64,000 bases of DNA from a virus. Its lineage: Duplodnaviria; Caudoviricetes. Of this stretch, positions 36,535 through 52,144 are shown piece after piece. A program made the position numbers and the translations under genes. The DNA is taken from the IMG/VR virus record IMGVR_UViG_2721755344_000002, positions 1-64,000 of that record; one strand, 5' to 3'. Under the pieces are notes generated by a model. It did not search any database. It had not been told where the DNA came from and saw only the letters and a program-made list of their open reading frames with translations. The number at the start of each line of letters is the position of its first letter. Position 1 is the stretch's first letter.

Positions 36535-37428
36535 TTAATTCTCCTCCGCAACCTGGACATTCCATGTGTCACCTCGTAATCTCCATATACAATTATTTTT
36601 AAGTTGATTCAAAAGTTTTCTCCTCAAAATCAAATGATTTGTTCTACACGAATTATGATCCATTGGCTTAGTAATACCTGGATAGCACTCATCAATAAGG
36701 GCATAGTTTTTAGTTCTATCGTGCTCGGCACCAACATCATATTTTTTGCCTTTGAAATCTGTTGCCACTATCAATCCTGTATCTTGTAATACATCAAGTG
36801 AGTTTGACCAAAAAACTGTTTTGAATTGCGCTTTTGCATCTGCAGCTACTGAAAATGTTTGATCAAACGGATTTTCAGACCATTTGAAAAAGCCAAAAAA
36901 TCCAGTCCATTTATAAGTTCTTATTAATGGTTTTTCCCGATCATACGAGCTTTTTATCTTGTAATTGAGACTCGTTGTAAAATACGGAATGTTCCACGCT
37001 TTAGCAGTTCCTATCAGAACCTGTAGCTTTTTGGTATATATCTCAGCGTTCAATACACTAGTACGATACGCCCATCTTGTCGGTATAGCATCAGGCAAGA
37101 TATACCTGGTCATAATTATATCGTCATCTAATAGAACACCCGCATCCTCATCCCCCATATAACAACGCTTTAATAAATTCATTCCGTGCCAGCGTAGAGC
37201 CCCAAACGGAGGCTTTCCATCTGATGAGACAAAATCATGTCCCAAAATTTCTATTTCGTAACATTCCAACAAATCTTTAAAATCCTGTAATTGCGACCTA
37301 TGGCAAAATATCTTAATCTTATTCGATTCAACTCCAAGTCGATTAACAAGTATTCTTACTGTTTTAGCACACTTTTTTGGATATTTTGAAGCAATTAAAT
37401 AGTAAATTTGGTATGCCATTTTTCTCAC
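36535..37428 (-). CDS. GT-A fold glycosyltransferase-like protein (possible DNA modification)
   Basis: G..R..LLDDDI DxD motif followed by FD...D; has its own sigma70 promoter. Confidence 0.5.
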   Translation of the reverse strand: MRKMAYQIYYLIASKYPKKCAKTVRILVNRLGVESNKIKIFCHRSQLQDFKDLLECYEIEILGHDFVSSDGKPPFGALRWHGMNLLKRCYMGDEDAGVLLDDDIIMTRYILPDAIPTRWAYRTSVLNAEIYTKKLQVLIGTAKAWNIPYFTTSLNYKIKSSYDREKPLIRTYKWTGFFGFFKWSENPFDQTFSVAADAKAQFKTVFWSNSLDVLQDTGLIVATDFKGKKYDVGAEHDRTKNYALIDECYPGITKPMDHNSCRTNHLILRRKLLNQLKNNCIWRLRGDTWNVQVAEEN

Positions 37429-37439
37429 CTCGTATAGCC

Positions 37440-37468
37440 ATTATAGCATATCCAAAATTATTTGTCAA
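37440..37468 (-). promoter_or_regulatory. sigma70-type promoter, TTGACA-17-TATAAT with extended TG
   Basis: Perfect consensus just upstream of 36535..37428. Confidence 0.85.
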
Positions 37469-38242
37469 GTCTTATTTTTGTGCAAGTCCACAAGAGACTT
37501 AAGCAATTTTATTATCTCCTCCAACTGTCGATTCATTTCCAACAGTATGTTAAAATCTTCCTGGTCCATCGCCATTTTTTATACCATCCCCAAATCAAAT
37601 GCTTCTATACCATCTGGACATTTTCTCCTATTAATCCACGCTATTTTACATCCTTTCCCTTAAGCTCCAAACTATTCCTATGAGAAGCATAAACAAACAG
37701 ATTCCTCCCCATACCCAACTAATCCAATGGACCTCTCCAACAAGAAGGAAAAGAAAACACGTGACTGTTACTCCACCAATTCCAACATATATCATACTCC
37801 TGCATATTTCTGACTTAGTCATTTTATCTCCAAATTAATCCATCTTAATTGTTTCCATTTCTCGCCCAGTAAATTTGACCTAAGATATCTTTAAACAACT
37901 TATACTCCGTTGTTTCAAAAAACAATGTTAAACCCCCAGCTTTTATATCTTCTTTAGTTGCAAACCTGTACATTTTTTCAACTAACTGTTCAGAGCTTAT
38001 CATCTAACTCCTCTTCTATTATAAATCTAACATATTCAAGGTGATAGCTAAACCAACCCTTTTCCCACATTCTATCCCATGTTTGCTGTTTGTACTCTTG
38101 ACACCAAGACTTGAAGTCCTTCTGGTACTTTTTCGGCACCTGTTTCCATAGAGCAGGAAACGGTGTATCATCCTCGTTAATCATTCTTGACAAGGCTTTT
38201 AAAAAATATTTACCATTCATACTATCCCAACCCTTTCGCAAT

Positions 38243-38271
38243 ATCATAACATAATAAAATCTATTTGTCAA
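38243..38271 (-). promoter_or_regulatory. sigma70-type promoter, TTGACA-17-TATGAT
   Basis: Read directly. Confidence 0.7.
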
Positions 38272-38330
38272 CCTGTTTTTGATTCAAAATCGACCTTCTT
38301 TAATTGCTATTAAGATAATAATCTTTTCAA

Positions 38331-39020
38331 TTATATTAGATATTTCTGAGAGCATAAGCAATCTAAATTTGTCCAAATTCCCTCGTTCCTAAGTTTTGAT
38401 CCCTTGCGTTGTCCACTTGTGGTACACAAAGGTCTAAACGGTAACCATACAGCACTATCGTTTTCGCAAACAATAATTTGACCTTTTCGACTTTTGCACC
38501 AACTGGCTAATACTTCATAATCCAAATCCTTCCCATATGGATACAATTTCTGGCCGATATAGGGAGGGTCAATAAACCATGTAGCCTCTATATCGGGGGC
38601 TATGGAATAGTCGCCGAGCAGAATTTCCCATGTACGAATTTTAGCAACGTCATCGGCTACTTTATTCCAATTCAAATTTTGATTACCTTTGAAACCACCA
38701 ACAAAATTTTTAGGAGTTGGACTACCTTGATTCAACATAAAACCTAGAAAATCTCTGGCCTCCTGAGGTTTGATATCAGGTATAGGAGCCTTTGCATCAG
38801 GATGTGGAAGATTTCTAATAAAGTCTAGATCTGAATTTTGCAACCATTTCAGCATAGAAACAATCACAGGATTTTTTTCAATTAAAATAACATGCCTACC
38901 AACACTATGTCTTAAAGCATAATTTGCTGCGCCAGAAAACGGCTCAATAATTATATTATAAATAGGGGCAGGATACTTTTTCCATATTTTTGATTTTGAA
39001 CCATAATAACTGAATATCAT
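38331..39020 (-). CDS. Dam-like (D12 class) DNA adenine methyltransferase
   Basis: YYGSKSK, EPFSGAA, FIDPPY. Confidence 0.8.
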   Translation of the reverse strand: MIFSYYGSKSKIWKKYPAPIYNIIIEPFSGAANYALRHSVGRHVILIEKNPVIVSMLKWLQNSDLDFIRNLPHPDAKAPIPDIKPQEARDFLGFMLNQGSPTPKNFVGGFKGNQNLNWNKVADDVAKIRTWEILLGDYSIAPDIEATWFIDPPYIGQKLYPYGKDLDYEVLASWCKSRKGQIIVCENDSAVWLPFRPLCTTSGQRKGSKLRNEGIWTNLDCLCSQKYLI

Positions 39021-39477
39021 ACAATGGTACTCTTCAGCATCTTAATCTCTTCTTCTAGATCTTTAATCTTAGTTTCAGCTTCAGATAATGGATGTTTTGG
39101 ACACTGTCTAATATGATCATATAGCACTTTACGTTTAACAGCATTCGTTCCAGGTGGATATCTATGGCCGCAATATACACAATTTATATACATACCACTT
39201 TGTAAATCATCAACCCATTTTTCAAGTCTAACTACTTCATTTTCAAGTTCTATTACTCTATCTGTAAGCTCTAAGTGCTCTTTCTGAACTACTGACATTT
39301 GCTTTCTCCTTTCAAGTACCCAGTACCTTCAAAACTCTTATTTTCGCAAAAATGCTACAGCTACATTTCACACAAAGATAAAATCCGCTAGGTGTTAATC
39401 TTGATCTATGCGGTCTTGTTCTACCGCCACATCTGATACATTTATATTTTGATAGTTCTGATCTATCACTACCACAA

Positions 39478-39852
39478 TCAGTTGTACACATCTTTCCCTC
39501 CATTTCCCTCTGCCCAATATCGTATCATGGTTGGAAAACTCTTGTGTGGTGTCGCCATCGGAAATAATCGTTCAATAATTTTTACTTTCTTCCCCGCCAT
39601 AAATGCCATACCAATATCAAAAAGACAACCCTCACTTTTTCCATCCCAAGCGATGTGAATTTCGTCGGCCCATAAAATACCTTTTTTATTATCGGTGCAA
39701 ATTCTAAAACCAACCGAATCATTCTGATCTGTGTCCCGTGATGGCCAGTAAACCCTATTTCCGGTAGCTTCAAGACTTTTCACATATTCTTCAAGGATTT
39801 CTTTCCAATGTACATCAATATTTCTAACTGGACAGATTAAAAAAATTTTCAT
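39478..39852 (-). CDS. Nucleoside 2-deoxyribosyltransferase-like protein
   Basis: IFLICPVR..VYWP.RD..ADEIH..S.G..FDIGMAF. Confidence 0.65.
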   Translation of the reverse strand: MKIFLICPVRNIDVHWKEILEEYVKSLEATGNRVYWPSRDTDQNDSVGFRICTDNKKGILWADEIHIAWDGKSEGCLFDIGMAFMAGKKVKIIERLFPMATPHKSFPTMIRYWAEGNGGKDVYN

Positions 39853-39912
39853 TCTACCTCTATTTTTGATTTTGAACCGTAGTAGCTAAAGATCATTATT
39901 TAAACCTTAAAA

Positions 39913-39982
39913 ATACCATACCTTACCATACCGAACCTAACCGAACCAAACCTTACCAAACCAAACCTCACCCTACCGAACT
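39913..39982 (-). repeat. GGT-NN pentamer array 3 (13 GGT units); candidate guide ncRNA
   Basis: Plus-strand ACC at 39915, 39920 ... 39975 in exact 5-bp phase with variable dinucleotides; intergenic. Confidence 0.9.
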
Positions 39983-39988
39983 TAAAAT

Positions 39989-40882
39989 TTACCACTCATA
40001 CCCATCTGAATATAATTTTAAATCGCTCTTTTCGTTTATAAGAACAAATCCATTCTTCCACTTAGAATGACTGCTTTTTACAGTACTCCCATTATAGGTC
40101 ATTGAATCTTGAGAAAACATCCCTCCGCAATCCGCTCCAATATATTTCCCACTTTGATCGTTTCCCGAACCGAAATGATGACCGTGAGCACAAATCACAT
40201 TTTTGTGTTCGATTGCTATTATATCTAAAGGAGTTTTGATTGTCTGCTTTGAATAATTGGATGGATGGCAAATAATCCAATTTTTATCTTCCGTCATAGC
40301 ATACTTAATATTTGATGGAAAAACTCTAACCCCAACCAAATCTATTGGAACTAATTGATAAAAAAGATTTTTTACATCAAAGATGCTTCCCAAAGCTCTG
40401 AAAATTCTTATATCATGGTTTCCCAAAATAAAATAGATTTTTTCAAACTGATTCAACAAACACTCGAACAATTCCCTCCCCGCTTGGAGTTCAGTATCCC
40501 AATCCACTTTTACTCCTGTATTCATCCAAATCTTAAACTGGTCTTGATCAAAGAAATCTCCAGCTATCATAAGAGTTTTAATTTTTCTAATATCTGAAAT
40601 TTCGCAGAGTAACTGAAGCCATTCTTTGCTAGTATGAGGTATATGAAAATCCGCAACAATTAAACAAGGAAGAGGAATATACATTGTATTATCTTTTATC
40701 CATTCCAACGACATTTTAATAACTGTGTCAATAGTTGGAATTTTAATAAGATTTCTCTTCTCAGCTCTCTTCAATAAATCATCTTTTGTAAACCCAGCCA
40801 CGGAACTAAATTTCAAAATTTTAGATTTATTAGAAGAGTTACTAATACTTTTTTTACATTCACTAAATTTTAGATTTTTCAT
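39989..40882 (-). CDS. Calcineurin-like metallophosphoesterase
   Basis: ADFH, GDFFD, GNHD, CH, AHGHH; GAGGTG RBS before ATG at 40882. Confidence 0.85.
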   Translation of the reverse strand: MKNLKFSECKKSISNSSNKSKILKFSSVAGFTKDDLLKRAEKRNLIKIPTIDTVIKMSLEWIKDNTMYIPLPCLIVADFHIPHTSKEWLQLLCEISDIRKIKTLMIAGDFFDQDQFKIWMNTGVKVDWDTELQAGRELFECLLNQFEKIYFILGNHDIRIFRALGSIFDVKNLFYQLVPIDLVGVRVFPSNIKYAMTEDKNWIICHPSNYSKQTIKTPLDIIAIEHKNVICAHGHHFGSGNDQSGKYIGADCGGMFSQDSMTYNGSTVKSSHSKWKNGFVLINEKSDLKLYSDGYEW

Positions 40883-40900
40883 TTTCACCTCACTAAGTTA

Positions 40901-40963
40901 TCCATACCATACCAAACCGAACCGCACCTGACCGAACCCTACCATACCCGACCAAACCACACA
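40901..40963 (-). repeat. GGT-NN pentamer array 2 (11 GGT units, ends GGAT); candidate guide ncRNA
   Basis: ACC at 40906...40956 in exact 5-bp phase. Confidence 0.9.
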
Positions 40964-40998
40964 ACAGCCTGATAAGAAGAATATTAAGAATAATTGCA

Positions 40999-41071
40999 TC
41001 CTTACCATACCATACCGAACCGAACCCCGCCTAACCATACACTACCATACCAAACCGAACCAAACCTTACC
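40999..41071 (-). repeat. GGY-NN pentamer array 1 (14 units including one GGC and one TGT, ends GGAT); candidate guide ncRNA
   Basis: ACC/GCC at 41004...41069 in exact 5-bp phase; the first unit overlaps the stop codon of the RAMP-like gene. Confidence 0.9.
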
Positions 41072-41609
41072 TAACTTCTTTTAATTCTACATCGAAACGT
41101 CCGAATCTAGGTCTCCAATCACCGATACCAATCTTATGCCCAGTAATTTCCATAACACTCTCAACTATTTGCTTTGGAATATCATCATCCACAATTATCG
41201 TAAATTCTGCTTTCCACCCCTTTTTGAAAAGGGGCCTATGAATAGCCACTCTTCCCCCAGTTCTTGGAGGTCTCCTCCCATGACTAATATGAATATCGTC
41301 CCATATTTTTTTGTTGGGAATAAATCGGATTTTATTTTCTTCAATTAAAACACCAGCTATAAAATCTCCTGTCCATTTAGTAGCACCTTTCTTAACCAAT
41401 TTAGATGCTCCAAATTTGATAGCCGCAAGAAAATGTTCGTCTGGGATATAACAACCATCCTCGTCTTTATACACAACTTCATCAACTTTACTGGTCGCAT
41501 CTGTGGCTAATGATTTAGCTCTTTTTACACCTTTTGATTCTTCTTCCGAAATGGTATACTGGTTCTGAAGATAATCGACAATCCCTATACATTTTACTTT
41601 AATTTTCAT
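41067..41609 (-). CDS. Stand-alone RAMP/Cas7-like RNA-binding protein associated with the GGT-NN arrays
   Basis: N-terminal strand KIKVKCIG; YIPDEHFLAAI (compare RAMP YIPGSSxKGAh); RPLF..GW.AEF; C-terminal Gly-rich loop GHKIGIGDWRPRFGRFDV; GGAGG RBS before ATG at 41609. Confidence 0.7.
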   Translation of the reverse strand: MKIKVKCIGIVDYLQNQYTISEEESKGVKRAKSLATDATSKVDEVVYKDEDGCYIPDEHFLAAIKFGASKLVKKGATKWTGDFIAGVLIEENKIRFIPNKKIWDDIHISHGRRPPRTGGRVAIHRPLFKKGWKAEFTIIVDDDIPKQIVESVMEITGHKIGIGDWRPRFGRFDVELKEVR

Positions 41610-41634
41610 AGTATCCTCCATTTAATTTAATATT

Positions 41635-41664
41635 ATTATAACACAATTAAAAAGGTTTTGTCAA
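41635..41664 (-). promoter_or_regulatory. sigma70-type promoter, TTGACA-18-TATAAT, driving the RAMP-like gene and arrays
   Basis: Perfect hexamers 26 bp upstream of ATG 41609. Confidence 0.85.
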
Positions 41665-41665
41665 C

Positions 41666-42982
41666 TCAGCCCCACTCCTTTTGAACATTCTGAGTTCTTT
41701 TGGTTGAAAGTTCCGAATATCCCAAATCAACCCCAAACCCGCGCCTGCCTAACTTTTCCGCAACTCTGATTGTAGTACCGGATCCAGCAAACGGGTCTAA
41801 TACCGAACCTGCTATCCAACCTGCATTACATCCGCAGTCCGTTAGCTCGACTAACTTCTTCATATACTGACCCATATTCTTTTCTTTAAATTCTCTCGGG
41901 TCTCGAGGGTCGGGTCTAGGCTTATTAACTTTCGGATCATAATCACCTGAATATTCTGAATCATAAATTTTCTCTCTCGGCTTCCCACATTTCTTACAAA
42001 TAAACTCTGGGACACCAGCCAAAATCATAGGTCGAACAAGATCCTCGGGAAATATTGCGAAATGAGCCTCTCTAACTCCTTTTGTAGGAATCTTCCACAC
42101 ACATCGTTTATTACGACCTAGAGGGTTAAGATTATTAAAAATCCTTTGTCTTACTTTAACACCTCCGCTCACGCCTTCGGAATCATAATCTTTCCATCCC
42201 CTTCCCCCCTCATCATTTCCAGCTCTTGCATCATTGAGCGTAACAGAAGACATTGGCTCAAATTGCTGGTCAAAGAAATAGTCTTTCTTCTTAGCAAAGA
42301 AAAATACAGGCTCCCAGTCGACCGTAAACCTATCTTTTACGCTGTGAGGTAAGGTATTCGGTTTATGCCAAACAATTTTATTCCTAAGTATCCATCCTCT
42401 GTTTAACATCTCGATCACAAATCTTTCCGGAATACCTAACAAAGACTTTGGGGCAAACTTTTGAGAAGGAGGAGCTCCAAATCCGCCTATACCAACAGGA
42501 CGAGAATCAATTCCTCGAGGACCTTTTCTTTGAGTACCAGGTTTCTTTCCCTGATCACCTCCACTCCCTCCGTAACTATCTGATAAATTCACAAAAATTA
42601 TACCATCGTCTCTCAATACTCTTTTCACTTCATCAAATATATCGCACAAGTGCCTGATAAAGTCATCATAATGAGACTCGCATCCTAACTGCCCTTTCCA
42701 TGCGCCACACTTAGTACAATTTGAACGAGAACCATATTCAATTTTTTGTGCTTTAGGTGGCGGTCGATCTCCATACATTGAGTTTTGTGTTCCACCAGCT
42801 CTCATTCGATAATCAAAAGCCAGCTCTTCTGTAACCCAATCGTGGGGGCAATTCGGGGACCCGTCCCAAATCACATCTGGAATATCATACTTTCTGAGAG
42901 CGTAATACGGCGGGGAAGTGATAACGCAATTTATTGACTTATCCGCAAGCGGAATATGCCTTGCATCACAGTTAAATATCAT
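41666..42982 (-). CDS. Beta-class N4/N6 DNA methyltransferase with Cys-rich inserts
   Basis: TSPPY, W.KPN, HFAIFP, VLDPFAGSGTT. Confidence 0.9.
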   Translation of the reverse strand: MIFNCDARHIPLADKSINCVITSPPYYALRKYDIPDVIWDGSPNCPHDWVTEELAFDYRMRAGGTQNSMYGDRPPPKAQKIEYGSRSNCTKCGAWKGQLGCESHYDDFIRHLCDIFDEVKRVLRDDGIIFVNLSDSYGGSGGDQGKKPGTQRKGPRGIDSRPVGIGGFGAPPSQKFAPKSLLGIPERFVIEMLNRGWILRNKIVWHKPNTLPHSVKDRFTVDWEPVFFFAKKKDYFFDQQFEPMSSVTLNDARAGNDEGGRGWKDYDSEGVSGGVKVRQRIFNNLNPLGRNKRCVWKIPTKGVREAHFAIFPEDLVRPMILAGVPEFICKKCGKPREKIYDSEYSGDYDPKVNKPRPDPRDPREFKEKNMGQYMKKLVELTDCGCNAGWIAGSVLDPFAGSGTTIRVAEKLGRRGFGVDLGYSELSTKRTQNVQKEWG

Positions 42983-43006
42983 CCTACGCTTTCTAAATTT
43001 GGTCTT

Positions 43007-43204
43007 TTATTCCACCACTACATTGATTGCTTGTGGACCTTTGGGACCTTCTTGAATCTCGAAATCTACCTTGTCGCCTTCGTTCAGGGATTTAAAACCC
43101 TCCCTCTGAATAGCTGAGAAGTGAACGAATACATCGCTACCATCTTCTCTGGAAATAAATCCGAAACCCTTCTTCTCGTTAAACCACTTAACACTACCTT
43201 TCGT
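43007..43204 (-). CDS. csp: Cold-shock protein (CspA family), apparent ACG start
   Basis: [34 protein letters not shown]; AAAGGAGGTG RBS 8 nt before ACG at 43204. Confidence 0.9.
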
Positions 43205-43229
43205 AAATATCACCTCCTTTCTATTTTTA

Positions 43230-43322
43230 TGGGGACAGGCGGGGGACATAACGGACTCAAACCGAGTTCTTGGTATAACTTCACCCCCGAGGAACCTGAA
43301 CCTGCTTTCGCCACTGTCCCCA
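43230..43322 (-). ncRNA. Structured, partly tRNA-like element upstream of csp
   Basis: GGGGACAG/CTGTCCCC closing stem, CGGGGG/CCCCCG inner stem, CGG-TTTGAGT-CCG T-loop-like hairpin. Confidence 0.4.
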
Positions 43323-43384
43323 CTAATATTTCACCTTCTATCATCGTCACTAAAATTCACTAGAACTCCCTGAATACTTTCTCT

Positions 43385-43981
43385 TCATACTTCGTCCCCC
43401 CAAACTTCCCACTTTTCATCTCTTTTCCTAGCAAAAAGTTCAATTCTTTTTCCTATAGGATATAAATCTTCAATCATCTTCCTAAACTTAGGAGGTTTCT
43501 CGGAATGTTTACCTCTATGTATTGAGACAACACTTGGATATAATTTCCGACGGTCTGGCAGGCAACTTCCTTTAGTAGCTACCAATAAAAACTCGTGACG
43601 CAACGAGTTGTAGTGAGCGAAATTGTGAGTCATCTTATCCCAAACGAACGAACTTTTGTATTTGAACCCCCAAGCATTAATTACCTTAAAAGCATCTTCC
43701 AGTAATGGAGAAGTTACCCAAAGAAATAAAACAGCATTATCTTCTGTTCGTATCTTTAAATTACAAATTTCTTCAAGACTCATCGTTCCATAATGATGCT
43801 CTGCTGCTCCATATCCATCTACTAGTTTATCACCATATTGCCAAGGCGGGTCAGCATAAACCACACGAAATTTATCGCTGGAAAGAGATTTATTTGTTTT
43901 TTCTCTTATATCATCTTGAAAAAATGTATCTTGATTAGGATTCTTAATCCTGCGCTTAGGAAATTTTTTTGATAGTTGCAT
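43385..43981 (-). CDS. MT-A70 family adenine methyltransferase
   Basis: YADPPW, LFLW.T, WGF.YK, HE.LL..TKG, HSEKP, IELFAR..W..WGDE. Confidence 0.92.
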   Translation of the reverse strand: MQLSKKFPKRRIKNPNQDTFFQDDIREKTNKSLSSDKFRVVYADPPWQYGDKLVDGYGAAEHHYGTMSLEEICNLKIRTEDNAVLFLWVTSPLLEDAFKVINAWGFKYKSSFVWDKMTHNFAHYNSLRHEFLLVATKGSCLPDRRKLYPSVVSIHRGKHSEKPPKFRKMIEDLYPIGKRIELFARKRDEKWEVWGDEV

Positions 43982-45205
43982 TCTACTCCGAGTTTAATCC
44001 CAAATCGAATGATTCTTTATACCAATCGGGCACACTTGACCTTATCTCTTCTATATTATGTGGTTTTCCCACATTAAACCCTCTTCCCAAAAGCCACCAA
44101 ACCATTTCGGTACTATTAAAATATACCCTACCCGTAGATTTTATTCCACCTTCTGGCTCAATATTACCGGTATCCAATTCCCAATCAGGAATTTTTACTA
44201 TAACTGAAAGTTCGTCTGCAAACTGGGATGTACCTTCCTTACTTTTCAATATACAAAATACTCCTGGTTCTACAACTAGATCATATCCTTTTAATTCAAA
44301 AAATTTGTCATGGAAATCATCTTTATTTTTAACCAATACTCTCACATATAACTTAGAATGTTTCGCCAGATAACCAAGAGTTTTATAAAAATTGTTGCTG
44401 TCGGTAAACAAAAATTCCTTTCGATTATAGGAATTTCCTTTGCGAGCATCAGCCCTTCTCGACTTATTCTTATCATCACTAAAATTTTTTAAATATCTTT
44501 CGTTCGTATTTTCTAATAAAACCTGCGGAGAAATAGAAGTTCTAATTTCTTCCCCATCTTTTCCTCGTCTTACTATAACTACCTCATCGTTTGTGATAGA
44601 CTCAATCGTATAATACCCCGAGTTATCCATGTAAGTTTCGCCTACCCGCAAACCTAAAATCTTAATCTCTGCTAATTTGTATTCTGCAAAGCTGTCAAAA
44701 TCGTCCCTGTCTAGTGCAATATCTTTATCTTCTTCATCATTTAAATTTATTTCTTTTACCTCTTTCACATCTTCTTTTACCTCAACATTTTCCATTTTTT
44801 CTCTCCTCCCGTATCATTATTTTCATAACATCATTCTACATAGATATCTTCTCCACTCTCTATCGCTTCTTTAGCTTGAATCCAACCTTCAACTTGGCAA
44901 CTGTTCTCTTTATAGTTTAGTTTCTTCTCTTCGATCTTCTCATAGAAAATAGCAACTCTTAACGCAGATAATAAATTTTCTCGCAATATTTTCATCATTT
45001 AAAAACTATTGCCTCTTAAACCTAGCCGGTGTGTGTTGGTCATTCCAAATAGTCTGCCCAAAAGCGTAACGTATGGCCTGAGATATAATAACTCTCATAA
45101 ACCAGACTCCCCCTAATGAAGCAATACAAAGAAGAACATACAAAATAGCATCCATTGAACTCTTTTTAGTTTCCATCTCATACTCCTTTCATTTAATTTA
45201 TAATT

Positions 45206-45234
45206 ATCATATCACAAAAAAAGGAGATTGTCAA
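45206..45234 (-). promoter_or_regulatory. sigma70-type promoter, TTGACA-17-TATGAT
   Basis: Read directly; intergenic. Confidence 0.7.
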
Positions 45235-45427
45235 GCTATATTTTATAAATAATTCGTATGTAATATCAAATACTTAGCTTGTTGAAAATCAACTTTTGCC
45301 GTAAGGAATTGATTCATTACACCGCCCGCAAATTGGACAGTAACAAGTCCATCCAGCTAAAACTGCACCGCACCTTGAACAATAATCATATCTTGGAATC
45401 ATAGTCAGGGTCTCACTTTCCCTCCTT

Positions 45428-46480
45428 TCACTTAACCATACAAACCACATCTTCCCAATCTATTCTAGGAGCGCCTTTCTTTTCCTGTAATCTTCGGAAA
45501 AAGCTTTTTCTCTCTTTGGTAAATTCAGCACCGTCAAATGCAGTTTGAGGATCATTATTTACTAACATTGCATAATGCCAACATACTATTTTAAAACCAA
45601 CAGACTCACATAAAGAAGCCCACGTATCAGAAAAATTAATTCTAGTCTTATTCCTTATATAATCCTTTGTAACCCAAATTGCATGCCCATCAGGTTTTAA
45701 CAAATTATAGCATTCTTGAATTATCTCACGAGAAGCCAACCAAAAGTCATCGCCAGCTATGCTACCCAAATTATCTTTATTATCTTTATTGTACCCTTCC
45801 CACGTTTTATTTTTACGATCTATTTTTCTTTGCTCTCTATCTGCTTGCTTAGATGAGCAAATTTCCGATGCTCCGTATGGAGGACTCGACATTATCAAAT
45901 CTGCCTTCATATTAGAAAGATTTCCTGGAGTACAACCGTAGGCATTTTGATAACGTAATTGACCGCATCCTATTCTACCATGCCCCGCTTTTGTTGCTAA
46001 TTCTTGACGTCTTGCATGGTTTTCAGGTTTATCACTCCCAGACAAACTATTTGCATAAGGAGGACTCGACATTACCAAATCAGCCTTATCAATCAGCTCC
46101 TTTAACTTTCTTGAATCCCCTTGAATAATTTTTGCTGTTCCTCTATATAGATGGAAAGGACGGCTTTCGCAAAGTTCCTTATCCAGTCCTTCCCACTTTT
46201 TAATATTTTTTCTGCCTAATTCTACAAATTTTTTCTCGATCTCTATTCCTATCCAATGTGCCCCTCTCGTCATAGCACCAAAACCTCCCAATGCTACTCC
46301 TCCAAACGGGTCGAGAACAATGTTGCCCTTCTTCAACCATTCATTATCAACAGCATGATTGTATATCTTCTCAACTAAGGCACAGCTAAACTTTGCTGGA
46401 TGACAAAAAGCATCACTAACTATGGAATCTTTCCATCCGGTTTCGTAACAATTCCTCCATACATCTGTCTCAAATATCAA
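45428..46480 (-). CDS. DNA amino-methyltransferase with a duplicated SPPY motif
   Basis: HPAKF, VLDPFGG, GIEIE, GDSR, ADL.MSSPPY x2, LKPDG. Confidence 0.85.
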   Translation of the reverse strand: MIFETDVWRNCYETGWKDSIVSDAFCHPAKFSCALVEKIYNHAVDNEWLKKGNIVLDPFGGVALGGFGAMTRGAHWIGIEIEKKFVELGRKNIKKWEGLDKELCESRPFHLYRGTAKIIQGDSRKLKELIDKADLVMSSPPYANSLSGSDKPENHARRQELATKAGHGRIGCGQLRYQNAYGCTPGNLSNMKADLIMSSPPYGASEICSSKQADREQRKIDRKNKTWEGYNKDNKDNLGSIAGDDFWLASREIIQECYNLLKPDGHAIWVTKDYIRNKTRINFSDTWASLCESVGFKIVCWHYAMLVNNDPQTAFDGAEFTKERKSFFRRLQEKKGAPRIDWEDVVCMVK

Positions 46481-52073: not shown

Positions 52074-52144
52074 AGCCCGTAGGAGGAATCGAACCCCCTT
52101 CTGATGGGTACAAACCATCAGCTCTGCCATTGAGCTACACGGGC
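52074..52144 (-). tRNA. tRNA-Thr (anticodon UGU), CCA not encoded
   Basis: Cloverleaf GCCCGTG/TACGGGC, GCTC/GAGC, GATGG-TTTGTAC-CCATC, GGGGG-TTCGATT-CCTCC. Confidence 0.88.

What the first reader, a model, noticed from the sequence alone, without database searches (positions are those of the whole stretch)
39913..41071. The variable dinucleotides decode as codon positions 1-2 of defence-gene-like peptides
I assumed each NN pairs with two target bases and the third base is skipped, then read the complement (plus-strand dinucleotides, ascending) as XYn codons. Array 3 (AT AT TT AT GA TA GA AA TT AA AA TC CT GA) can read IIFIDYENFKKSLE, resembling the hhFhDxxN start of NYN/LabA PIN ribonucleases. 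Array 1 (TT AT AT GA GA CC TA AT CT AT AA GA AA TT) can read LIIEDPYILIKENL, resembling the hhhxDPY motif of PLD-like/MIT-C domains seen in defence proteins. Array 2 (AT AT AA GA GC TG GA CT AT CG AA AC) can read IIKDA(C/W)DLMRKT, resembling the N-terminal helix of type I RM HsdM. If real, the guides are antisense to the coding strand, ignore wobble positions (so synonymous changes do not escape them), and silence host or competitor defence genes. Caveat: the decoding is degenerate, the 2+1 register is assumed, and I picked the residues by eye.
Basis: inference. Interest (0 to 1): 0.8.

Follow-up and report, generated by a model that had tools for sequence, protein, structure and literature searches.

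The report
Phage VIPR guide-RNA arrays, targets unknown

Summary

They follow a 180-aa gene (41067-41609) behind a consensus sigma-70 promoter. Its product folds like Cas7/Csm3. Its family profile hits the published vipr gene of Escherichia phage SUSP1 (E 5e-28), and the GGY-binding residues R-P and D-W-R are kept.

This is therefore a VIPR locus (Vipr + vrRNAs; bioRxiv 10.64898/2026.04.26.720920, .720927, 2026.10.15.759431). Those papers show experimentally, in SUSP1 and P. fulva systems, that NN pairs with dsDNA under a 1-nt skip rule, with the skipped base usually at codon wobble positions.

The peptide reading (NYN/PLD/HsdM defence genes) found no support. No seed hit lies in a defence gene, there is no self-target, and no full-length match exists in IMG/VR. 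The best candidate is a 22/24 in-frame match of array 2 to the start of a small unknown phage gene (about 0.1 such hits expected by chance).

A metallophosphoesterase between arrays 2 and 3 is conserved in a second locus and may be an accessory gene. This scan has already found VIPR in at least 7 other genomes. Verdict: a new member of a known kind.

The parts
41635..41664 (-). Consensus sigma-70 promoter (TTGACA, 18-nt spacer, TG-TATAAT) directly upstream of vipr
   Evidence: 12 of 12 hexamer matches plus an extended -10 TG; sequence read
41067..41609 (-). vipr: 180-aa minimal RAMP/Cas7-like protein. ATG at 41609 follows a GGAGG ribosome-binding site. The ORF list also offers an upstream ATG at 41621. 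The TAA stop lies inside the first GGUAA unit of vrRNA1.
   Evidence: AF2 model pLDDT 84. Foldseek top hits are type VII Cas7 and type III Csm3, prob 1.0, TM 0.5-0.6. Family profile hits SUSP1 vipr at E 5e-28. R129-P130 and D168-W169-R170 align with SUSP1 R138-P139 and D177-W178-R179. Matches phrog_4652.
41002..41076 (-). vrRNA1 array: 14 GGY-NN units (one internal UGU, one GGC) plus a 5' AGU-UA unit, followed by GGA
40961..40999 (-). AT-rich linker between vrRNA1 and vrRNA2, with no significant fold
40904..40963 (-). vrRNA2 array: 11 strict GGU-NN units plus a 5' UGU-GU unit. It ends 15 nt before the ribosome-binding site of the next gene.
39989..40882 (-). Calcineurin-like metallophosphoesterase (297 aa) with intact DxH, GD, GNHD and GHH motifs; candidate accessory (vap-like) gene
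   Evidence: Pfam PF00149 at 5.5e-8; phrog_221; 63% identical orthologue in the same position in L002; motifs invariant in 3 homologues
39913..39982 (-). vrRNA3 array: 13 strict GGU-NN units plus a 5' AGU-UC unit

Best explanation
This is a phage-borne VIPR locus. One strong promoter drives vipr, then vrRNA1, vrRNA2, a metallophosphoesterase gene and vrRNA3. By homology with the SUSP1 and P. fulva systems, Vipr protomers polymerise along each (GGU-NN)n RNA, one protomer per pentamer. They bury each GGY and present the NN dinucleotides. The filament binds double-stranded DNA whose target strand reads NNxNNx..., with x unpaired and usually a codon wobble base, and represses transcription of a rival mobile element. 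What is shown here: the arrays, the Vipr homology and fold, the conserved GGY-contact residues, the conserved protein-array linkage in relatives, and the absence of self-targets. What is inferred from the literature: RNP formation, the 1-nt skip pairing, and silencing. The natural targets of these three guides are unresolved.
For: Arrays are far above chance. Vipr has a Cas7/Csm3 fold. Profile A1 finds a single gene in phage SUSP1 (E 5e-28), and that gene is flanked by one upstream and three downstream GGYNN arrays, as published. The G-loop D-W-R and thumb R-P residues that bind G1/G2/Y3 are conserved. Homologues in 8 other contigs carry same-strand 5-nt-periodic arrays next to the gene: L001 (NNNGG), L002, L003/L004, L021, L022, L023, L025 (GUU-NN). 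NN strings are completely different in the orthologous cassette L002 although Vipr is 54% and the phosphoesterase 63% identical. Array lengths of 11-15 units lie within the published 9-16. No self-target exceeds shuffles at any skip length, as published. The arrays have no intrinsic fold. The record is a virus record of 114 kb.
Against: There is no expression or RNP evidence for this locus. No conserved structured 3' tail was found, unlike the SUSP1 pseudoknot. No statistically secure target was found, so the skip rule is untested here. A metallophosphoesterase is not named among the vap classes in the text of the papers. The NN-composition test for codon positions 1-2 was weak: T12 and T23 were about equal for the window, and the SUSP1 positive control discriminated only marginally.
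Confidence: 0.88

Rival explanations
1. One reading: the three guides spell codon positions 1-2 of conserved motifs of defence proteins (NYN/LabA PIN RNase, PLD/MIT-C, HsdM) and silence host or competitor defence genes.
For: The register is right. The locus sits in an anti-restriction island of orphan methyltransferases. [quoted passage not shown]
Against: An exact scan with 10 of the 12 units of array 2 over 185,579 species genomes, where HsdM is common, gave one hit, in a TPP enzyme. The metagenome scan hit only one small phage gene family. Viral-contig seeds hit unknown small proteins, MazG and terminase. None is a defence gene. The peptides were chosen by eye from degenerate codon families. 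No cross-targeting of related VIPR loci was seen.
Confidence: 0.04
2. Sub-hypothesis: vrRNA2 has a real natural target, the start codon and first ten codons of a 94-aa predicted membrane/coiled-coil protein (MNEAWELIRNV...) in L010-type phages. This would silence a gene in the nucleotide-metabolism and replication module of a rival phage.
For: All 11 strict GGU-flanked units match (22/22); only the degenerate 5' UGU unit mismatches (22/24 = 92%, above the published 80% cut-off). The match is in frame with skips at wobble positions. L016 differs from L010 at three wobble bases yet keeps the NN matches. All three metagenome hits belong to this one family. A reversed-order control seed gave 1 hit against 5 loci (3 independent families) for the real seed.
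Against: About 0.1 exact 22-base hits are expected by chance across the three collections. This is my estimate from 4^-22, the stated 596 Gb of genomes, and hit counts of the 18- and 20-base seeds. Two of the 11 units are the AU-GGU-AU motif that ends all three arrays and may carry no target-specific information. The commonest variant of the protein (59 members) has S instead of R and loses a unit. Arrays 1 and 3 have no above-shuffle match in the 12.8-15 kb of these phages that could be read.
Confidence: 0.3
3. The arrays are not programmable guides. They are periodic binding sites that only titrate or autoregulate the RAMP-like protein (a TRAP-like or Csr-sponge logic), or decoy RNAs.
For: The GG periodicity alone would fit an oligomeric RNA-binding protein. 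The arrays lie inside the operon's mRNA, next to ribosome-binding sites. Satellite-encoded solo vrRNAs can act as redirecting decoys.
Against: NN is hypervariable between orthologous cassettes while GGY is fixed. This is the signature of the information-bearing positions demonstrated experimentally in homologues.
Confidence: 0.05

Closest known systems
VIPR systems (Vipr + vrRNA + Vap), type II of Escherichia phage SUSP1 and the Pseudomonas fulva prophage; bioRxiv 10.64898/2026.04.26.720920, 10.64898/2026.04.26.720927, 10.64898/2026.10.15.759431
   Same: A small single-RRM RAMP protein with the same G-loop and thumb residues. Same-strand intergenic arrays of 11-15 GGY-NN pentamers with hypervariable NN. 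Phage-borne, with no self-target. One array block lies downstream of the protein genes.
   Different: Only 32% identity to SUSP1 Vipr. No recognisable conserved 3' tail or pseudoknot. The arrays are interleaved with protein genes in one operon. The adjacent conserved gene is a metallophosphoesterase rather than the small DNA-binding Vap1. The host is unknown (soil, sediment or groundwater metagenomes).
Class 1 CRISPR backbone subunits (type III Csm3/Cmr4, type VII Cas7)
   Same: Best structural matches: RRM core, thumb and G-rich loop. One protomer binds per RNA repeat unit, with periodic base flipping.
   Different: No CRISPR repeats or spacers, and no other cas genes among the neighbours. 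The period is 5 nt with 3 bases sequestered, instead of 6 nt with 1 flipped. The guide information is non-contiguous.
TRAP (trp RNA-binding attenuation protein) with its (G/U)AG-NN(N) repeats
   Same: A fixed triplet recurs with a period of about 5 nt and is bound by an oligomeric protein.
   Different: The protein fold is unrelated. TRAP spacers carry no information. This was recalled from memory as an early lead and dropped once the RAMP fold and the VIPR homology were shown.

Membership tests
VIPR | Vipr protein: minimal RAMP (single RRM, G-loop, thumb) homologous to published Vipr | tested here: met
   Foldseek hits Cas7/Csm3 at prob 1.0. Profile A1 hits SUSP1 vipr at E 5e-28 as the only match in that genome. 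32% identity alignment.
VIPR | Residues that recognise GGY (SUSP1 R138, D177, W178, R179; H17) | tested here: met
   R129-P130 and D168-W169-R170 are invariant. H17 aligns with N20, which is H or N in relatives.
VIPR | vrRNAs of about 9-16 tandem YNNGG/GGYNN units with conserved GGY and hypervariable NN, beside vipr on the same strand | tested here: met
   Three arrays of 12-15 units. NN strings are unrelated in the orthologous L002 cassette.
VIPR | Invariant structured 3' tail capping each vrRNA (a pseudoknot in the SUSP1 clade) | tested here: not met
   The 3' flanks differ. Only GGAU is shared by vrRNA1 and vrRNA2, and all three end in AU-GGU-AU. Fold z-scores are -0.08, +1.36 and +0.38. 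Rfam finds nothing. The papers describe variable architectures across seven types, so this does not exclude membership.
VIPR | Accessory vap gene next to vipr | tested here: inconclusive
   The metallophosphoesterase is conserved in position in L002 (63% identity) but absent from the other relatives. It is not named in the papers' text, and no supplementary files are held.
VIPR | Target recognition by the 1-nt skip rule with natural targets in rival mobile elements | tested here: inconclusive
   The best hit is 22/24 in frame, of marginal significance. There is no full-length hit for any array in IMG/VR.
VIPR | No self-targeting | tested here: met
   The best non-self scores on the 114-kb contig equal the shuffle maxima for skips 0-3.
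VIPR | vrRNAs are expressed and co-purify with Vipr; programmable repression | not testable with these tools
   No RNA run holds the stretch. This needs bench work.
CRISPR-Cas (class 1) | CRISPR repeat-spacer array and further cas genes (Cas5, Cas6, large subunit, adaptation genes) | tested here: not met
   PADLOC and Pfam give no cas hit among 10 neighbouring ORFs. The only repeats are the pentamer arrays.

The most novel reading that the evidence does not exclude
The window and L002 define a VIPR subtype in which a catalytically intact calcineurin-like metallophosphoesterase, embedded between tail-less vrRNAs in one operon, is the effector or accessory. This could turn guide binding into target or signal degradation rather than plain repression. 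In addition, vrRNA2 would truly target the start of a small membrane-protein gene of a rival phage.
Probability: 0.25. Interest if true: 0.5.

Novelty: new member of a known kind. Interest (0 to 1): 0.3.

Why it matters
VIPR is a newly described RNA-guided DNA-recognition system related to CRISPR. Each further natural locus adds guide-target pairs, scaffold variants and accessory genes. This locus extends the family to an uncultured 114-kb phage from soil, sediment or groundwater. It has tail-less arrays interleaved with genes and a conserved metallophosphoesterase neighbour that the papers' text does not mention. It also shows that a sequence-only reader can recover the gapped code, and that reading peptides out of degenerate NNx strings by eye over-reaches.

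Tried and rejected
- **TRAP-like or Csr-sponge binding sites, two-tier G-quadruplex tracts, pentapeptide-coding repeats.** These were early ideas, dropped after the RAMP fold and the VIPR homology.
- **Self-targets.** None at skip 0-3.
- **Seed scans of IMG/VR.** Two overlapping seeds were used per array. Array 1 gave 0 and 0 hits. Array 3 gave 1 and 0; the hit (L005) scores 23/28 at the start of a 99-aa ORF after a portal gene. About 3 chance hits are expected for this AT-rich 20-base seed (my estimate). Array 2 gave 5 and 1.
- **Control.** A reversed-order control seed gave 1 hit.
- **Larger collections.** The metagenome and species-genome scans could be run for array 2 only, because of the caps.
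- **Co-occurrence.** Contigs of four runs that hold the window phage (soil, sediment, groundwater) were laid on the L010 target region. Only spurious 18-38-nt pieces aligned, so there is no support. This is not evidence of absence.
- **Expression.** No RNA holder is listed for the locus.
- **Target-family variants.** None gives a 12/12 match.
- **Cross-targeting.** None between the window guides and 8 related VIPR loci, or between their guides and this contig.
- **NN-composition test.** The likelihood test for codon positions 1-2 was weak for the window, even though positions 1-2 win clearly for L002 and L003.
- **Phosphoesterase structure.** The AF2 model had pLDDT 46 and is unusable, so no fold search was run. 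No PDB sequence relative was found.
- **Extra candidate array.** A fourth candidate at contig 107774-107828 is a 15-nt coding tandem repeat, not a vrRNA.

Full report
**Observation**

On the + strand, window 39913-41076 holds three tracts of NN-ACC pentamers, which read GGT-NN on the - strand, the strand that carries all local genes. The pattern ACCNN repeated gives 28 overlapping matches, all inside these tracts, against none in 100 shuffles. Tandem Repeats Finder sees periods of 5, 10 and 15.

In RNA sense the arrays have 14, 11 and 13 strict GGY-NN units. Each has one extra 5' unit with a degenerate scaffold (AGU or UGU), and all three end in AU-GGU-AU.

**Context**

A perfect sigma-70 promoter (41664-41635, - strand) precedes a 180-aa gene. 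Its ATG is at 41609, behind a GGAGG site. Its stop codon lies inside the first unit of array 1.

The order on the - strand is array 1, a 39-nt linker, array 2, a 297-aa calcineurin-like metallophosphoesterase (Pfam PF00149), and array 3. The surroundings are a run of orphan DNA methyltransferases in a 114-kb virus record.

**What it is**

- The 180-aa protein has no Pfam or NCBIfam family and matches phrog_4652, of unknown function.
- Its AlphaFold model (pLDDT 84) is most similar to Cas7 of type VII and Csm3 of type III CRISPR complexes (prob 1.0, TM 0.5-0.6).
- A profile search finds 6,434 cluster representatives.
- In every relative whose DNA I could read, same-strand 5-nt-periodic arrays flank the gene. 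These are L001 (GG-NNN), L002, L003/L004, L021, L022, L023 and L025 (GUU-NN with GNRA-hairpin tails).

A literature search led to three 2026 preprints on VIPR systems. These consist of a minimal RAMP protein (Vipr) and vrRNAs of 9-16 YNNGG repeats. The GGY bases are buried by the protein, and the NN bases pair with dsDNA under a 1-nt skip rule. The skipped base mostly falls at codon wobble positions. The systems silence satellites, prophage regulators and rival VIPR loci.

My family profile hits one gene in phage SUSP1 (KT454805.2, 28474-29061; E 5e-28). That gene has one upstream and three downstream GGYNN arrays, exactly as published. In the alignment, the published GGY-contact residues R138-P139 and D177-W178-R179 are conserved as R129-P130 and D168-W169-R170. 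The locus is therefore a VIPR member.

Reading the + strand dinucleotides in ascending order as NNx is the target-strand reading prescribed by the published rule: guide 5'-GGYNN-3', target 3'-xNN-5'.

**Target tests**

1. *Own contig.* No match exceeds shuffled-order controls at skips 0-3, apart from the arrays themselves at skip 3. This agrees with the published absence of self-targets.
2. *IMG/VR viral contigs.* Two overlapping exact seeds of 9-10 units were scanned per array.
   - Array 1 gave none.
   - Array 3 gave one hit, 23/28, covering the start codon of a 99-aa ORF after a portal gene. This is chance-level for an AT-rich 20-base seed.
   - Array 2 gave five loci in three families plus one more. 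The best is L010, with 22/24.
   - A reversed-order control seed gave one hit.
3. *Metagenome contigs.* A 10-unit seed of array 2 gave three loci, all in the L010 gene family.
4. *Species genomes.* The same seed over 185,579 species genomes gave one hit, in a Gallicola TPP enzyme.

The L010 site reads ATT ATG AAC GAG GCT TGG GAA CTA ATT CGT AAT. All 11 strict units match. It is in frame, and it begins a 94-aa protein of unknown function next to dCMP deaminase and ribonucleotide reductase genes.

I estimate about 0.1 chance hits of this quality over the collections searched. Three further points weaken the case:
- Two of the 11 units are the shared AU-AU ending.
- The commonest protein variant loses a unit.
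- No second guide matches the readable parts of these phages.

I rate it a candidate (about 0.3), not a finding.

None of the hits lies in a defence gene. The others are a MazG-like gene, a terminase (antisense, with the skip at codon position 1) and an unknown structural-looking protein. The NYN, PLD and HsdM readings therefore have no support. For HsdM, the genome-wide scan argues against them.

**Other tests**

- The arrays have no intrinsic fold or conserved tail, and no Rfam family matches.
- The NN composition resembles codon positions 1-2 clearly in L002 and L003, but only weakly in the window and in the SUSP1 control.
- No cross-targeting was found among related VIPR loci.

**Accessory gene**

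The metallophosphoesterase has an intact catalytic motif set. It has only two other homologue clusters. One sits in the same vipr, array, array, phosphoesterase, array order in L002, at 63% identity, while the NN strings differ completely. It may be a clade-specific vap. Its structure could not be modelled.

**Verdict**

The arrays are real and more than chance. This is a new member of a known (2026) kind, which this scan has already met in at least seven other genomes. The gapped 2+1 code is right, the defence-gene decoding is over-reading, and the natural targets remain unknown.

Noticed in passing
L025:900-1200 and 1745-1925: A Vipr homologue (P0017) is flanked by arrays whose fixed triplet is GUU, not GGY (units NN-GTT). 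Each array ends in a CCACCC-GNRA-GGGUGG hairpin. This is a scaffold variant.
   Followed up: partly
L003:3612-3957 (same in L004): A small element with HTH, D5-type primase, HNH and integrase genes carries four GGT-NN arrays of 23, 20, 12 and 8 units upstream of vipr. The first two arrays each end in a CAGCC-UUCG-GGCUG hairpin, the last two in GCC/GGC-stem hairpins with UUUUAA or UUUCGA loops. The first two arrays exceed the published 9-16 units, or are staggered or overlapping guides.
   Followed up: partly
L001:3440-3795: In a high-GC phage, the arrays upstream of the Vipr homologue keep only GG (GG-NNN). Each is preceded by a conserved ggtgcgaatagcgcc motif and followed by gggctgttttcagc.
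   Followed up: no
protein P0016: A 336-aa representative matches the Vipr profile in two stretches. It may be a tandem Vipr fusion or two merged gene calls.
   Followed up: no
L002:4634-4759: A lysine-rich 41-aa ORF sits between the first two arrays of the orthologous cassette. The window has no counterpart, only a 39-nt linker.
   Followed up: no
contig G000:C1:107774-107828 (outside the window): Four copies of a 15-nt unit (CTACAGGCTTGGTTT) partly mimic GGY periodicity. It looks like a coding peptide repeat on the - strand, not a vrRNA.
   Followed up: partly
window 52074-52144 (-): A canonical tRNA gene (Rfam RF00005, 60.9 bits) is the only Rfam hit in the window.
   Followed up: no
window 36535-46480: There is a run of orphan DNA methyltransferases of several classes (N6_N4, MT-A70, Dam-like) with no recognisable nuclease. 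It is probably anti-restriction armour around the VIPR locus.
   Followed up: partly
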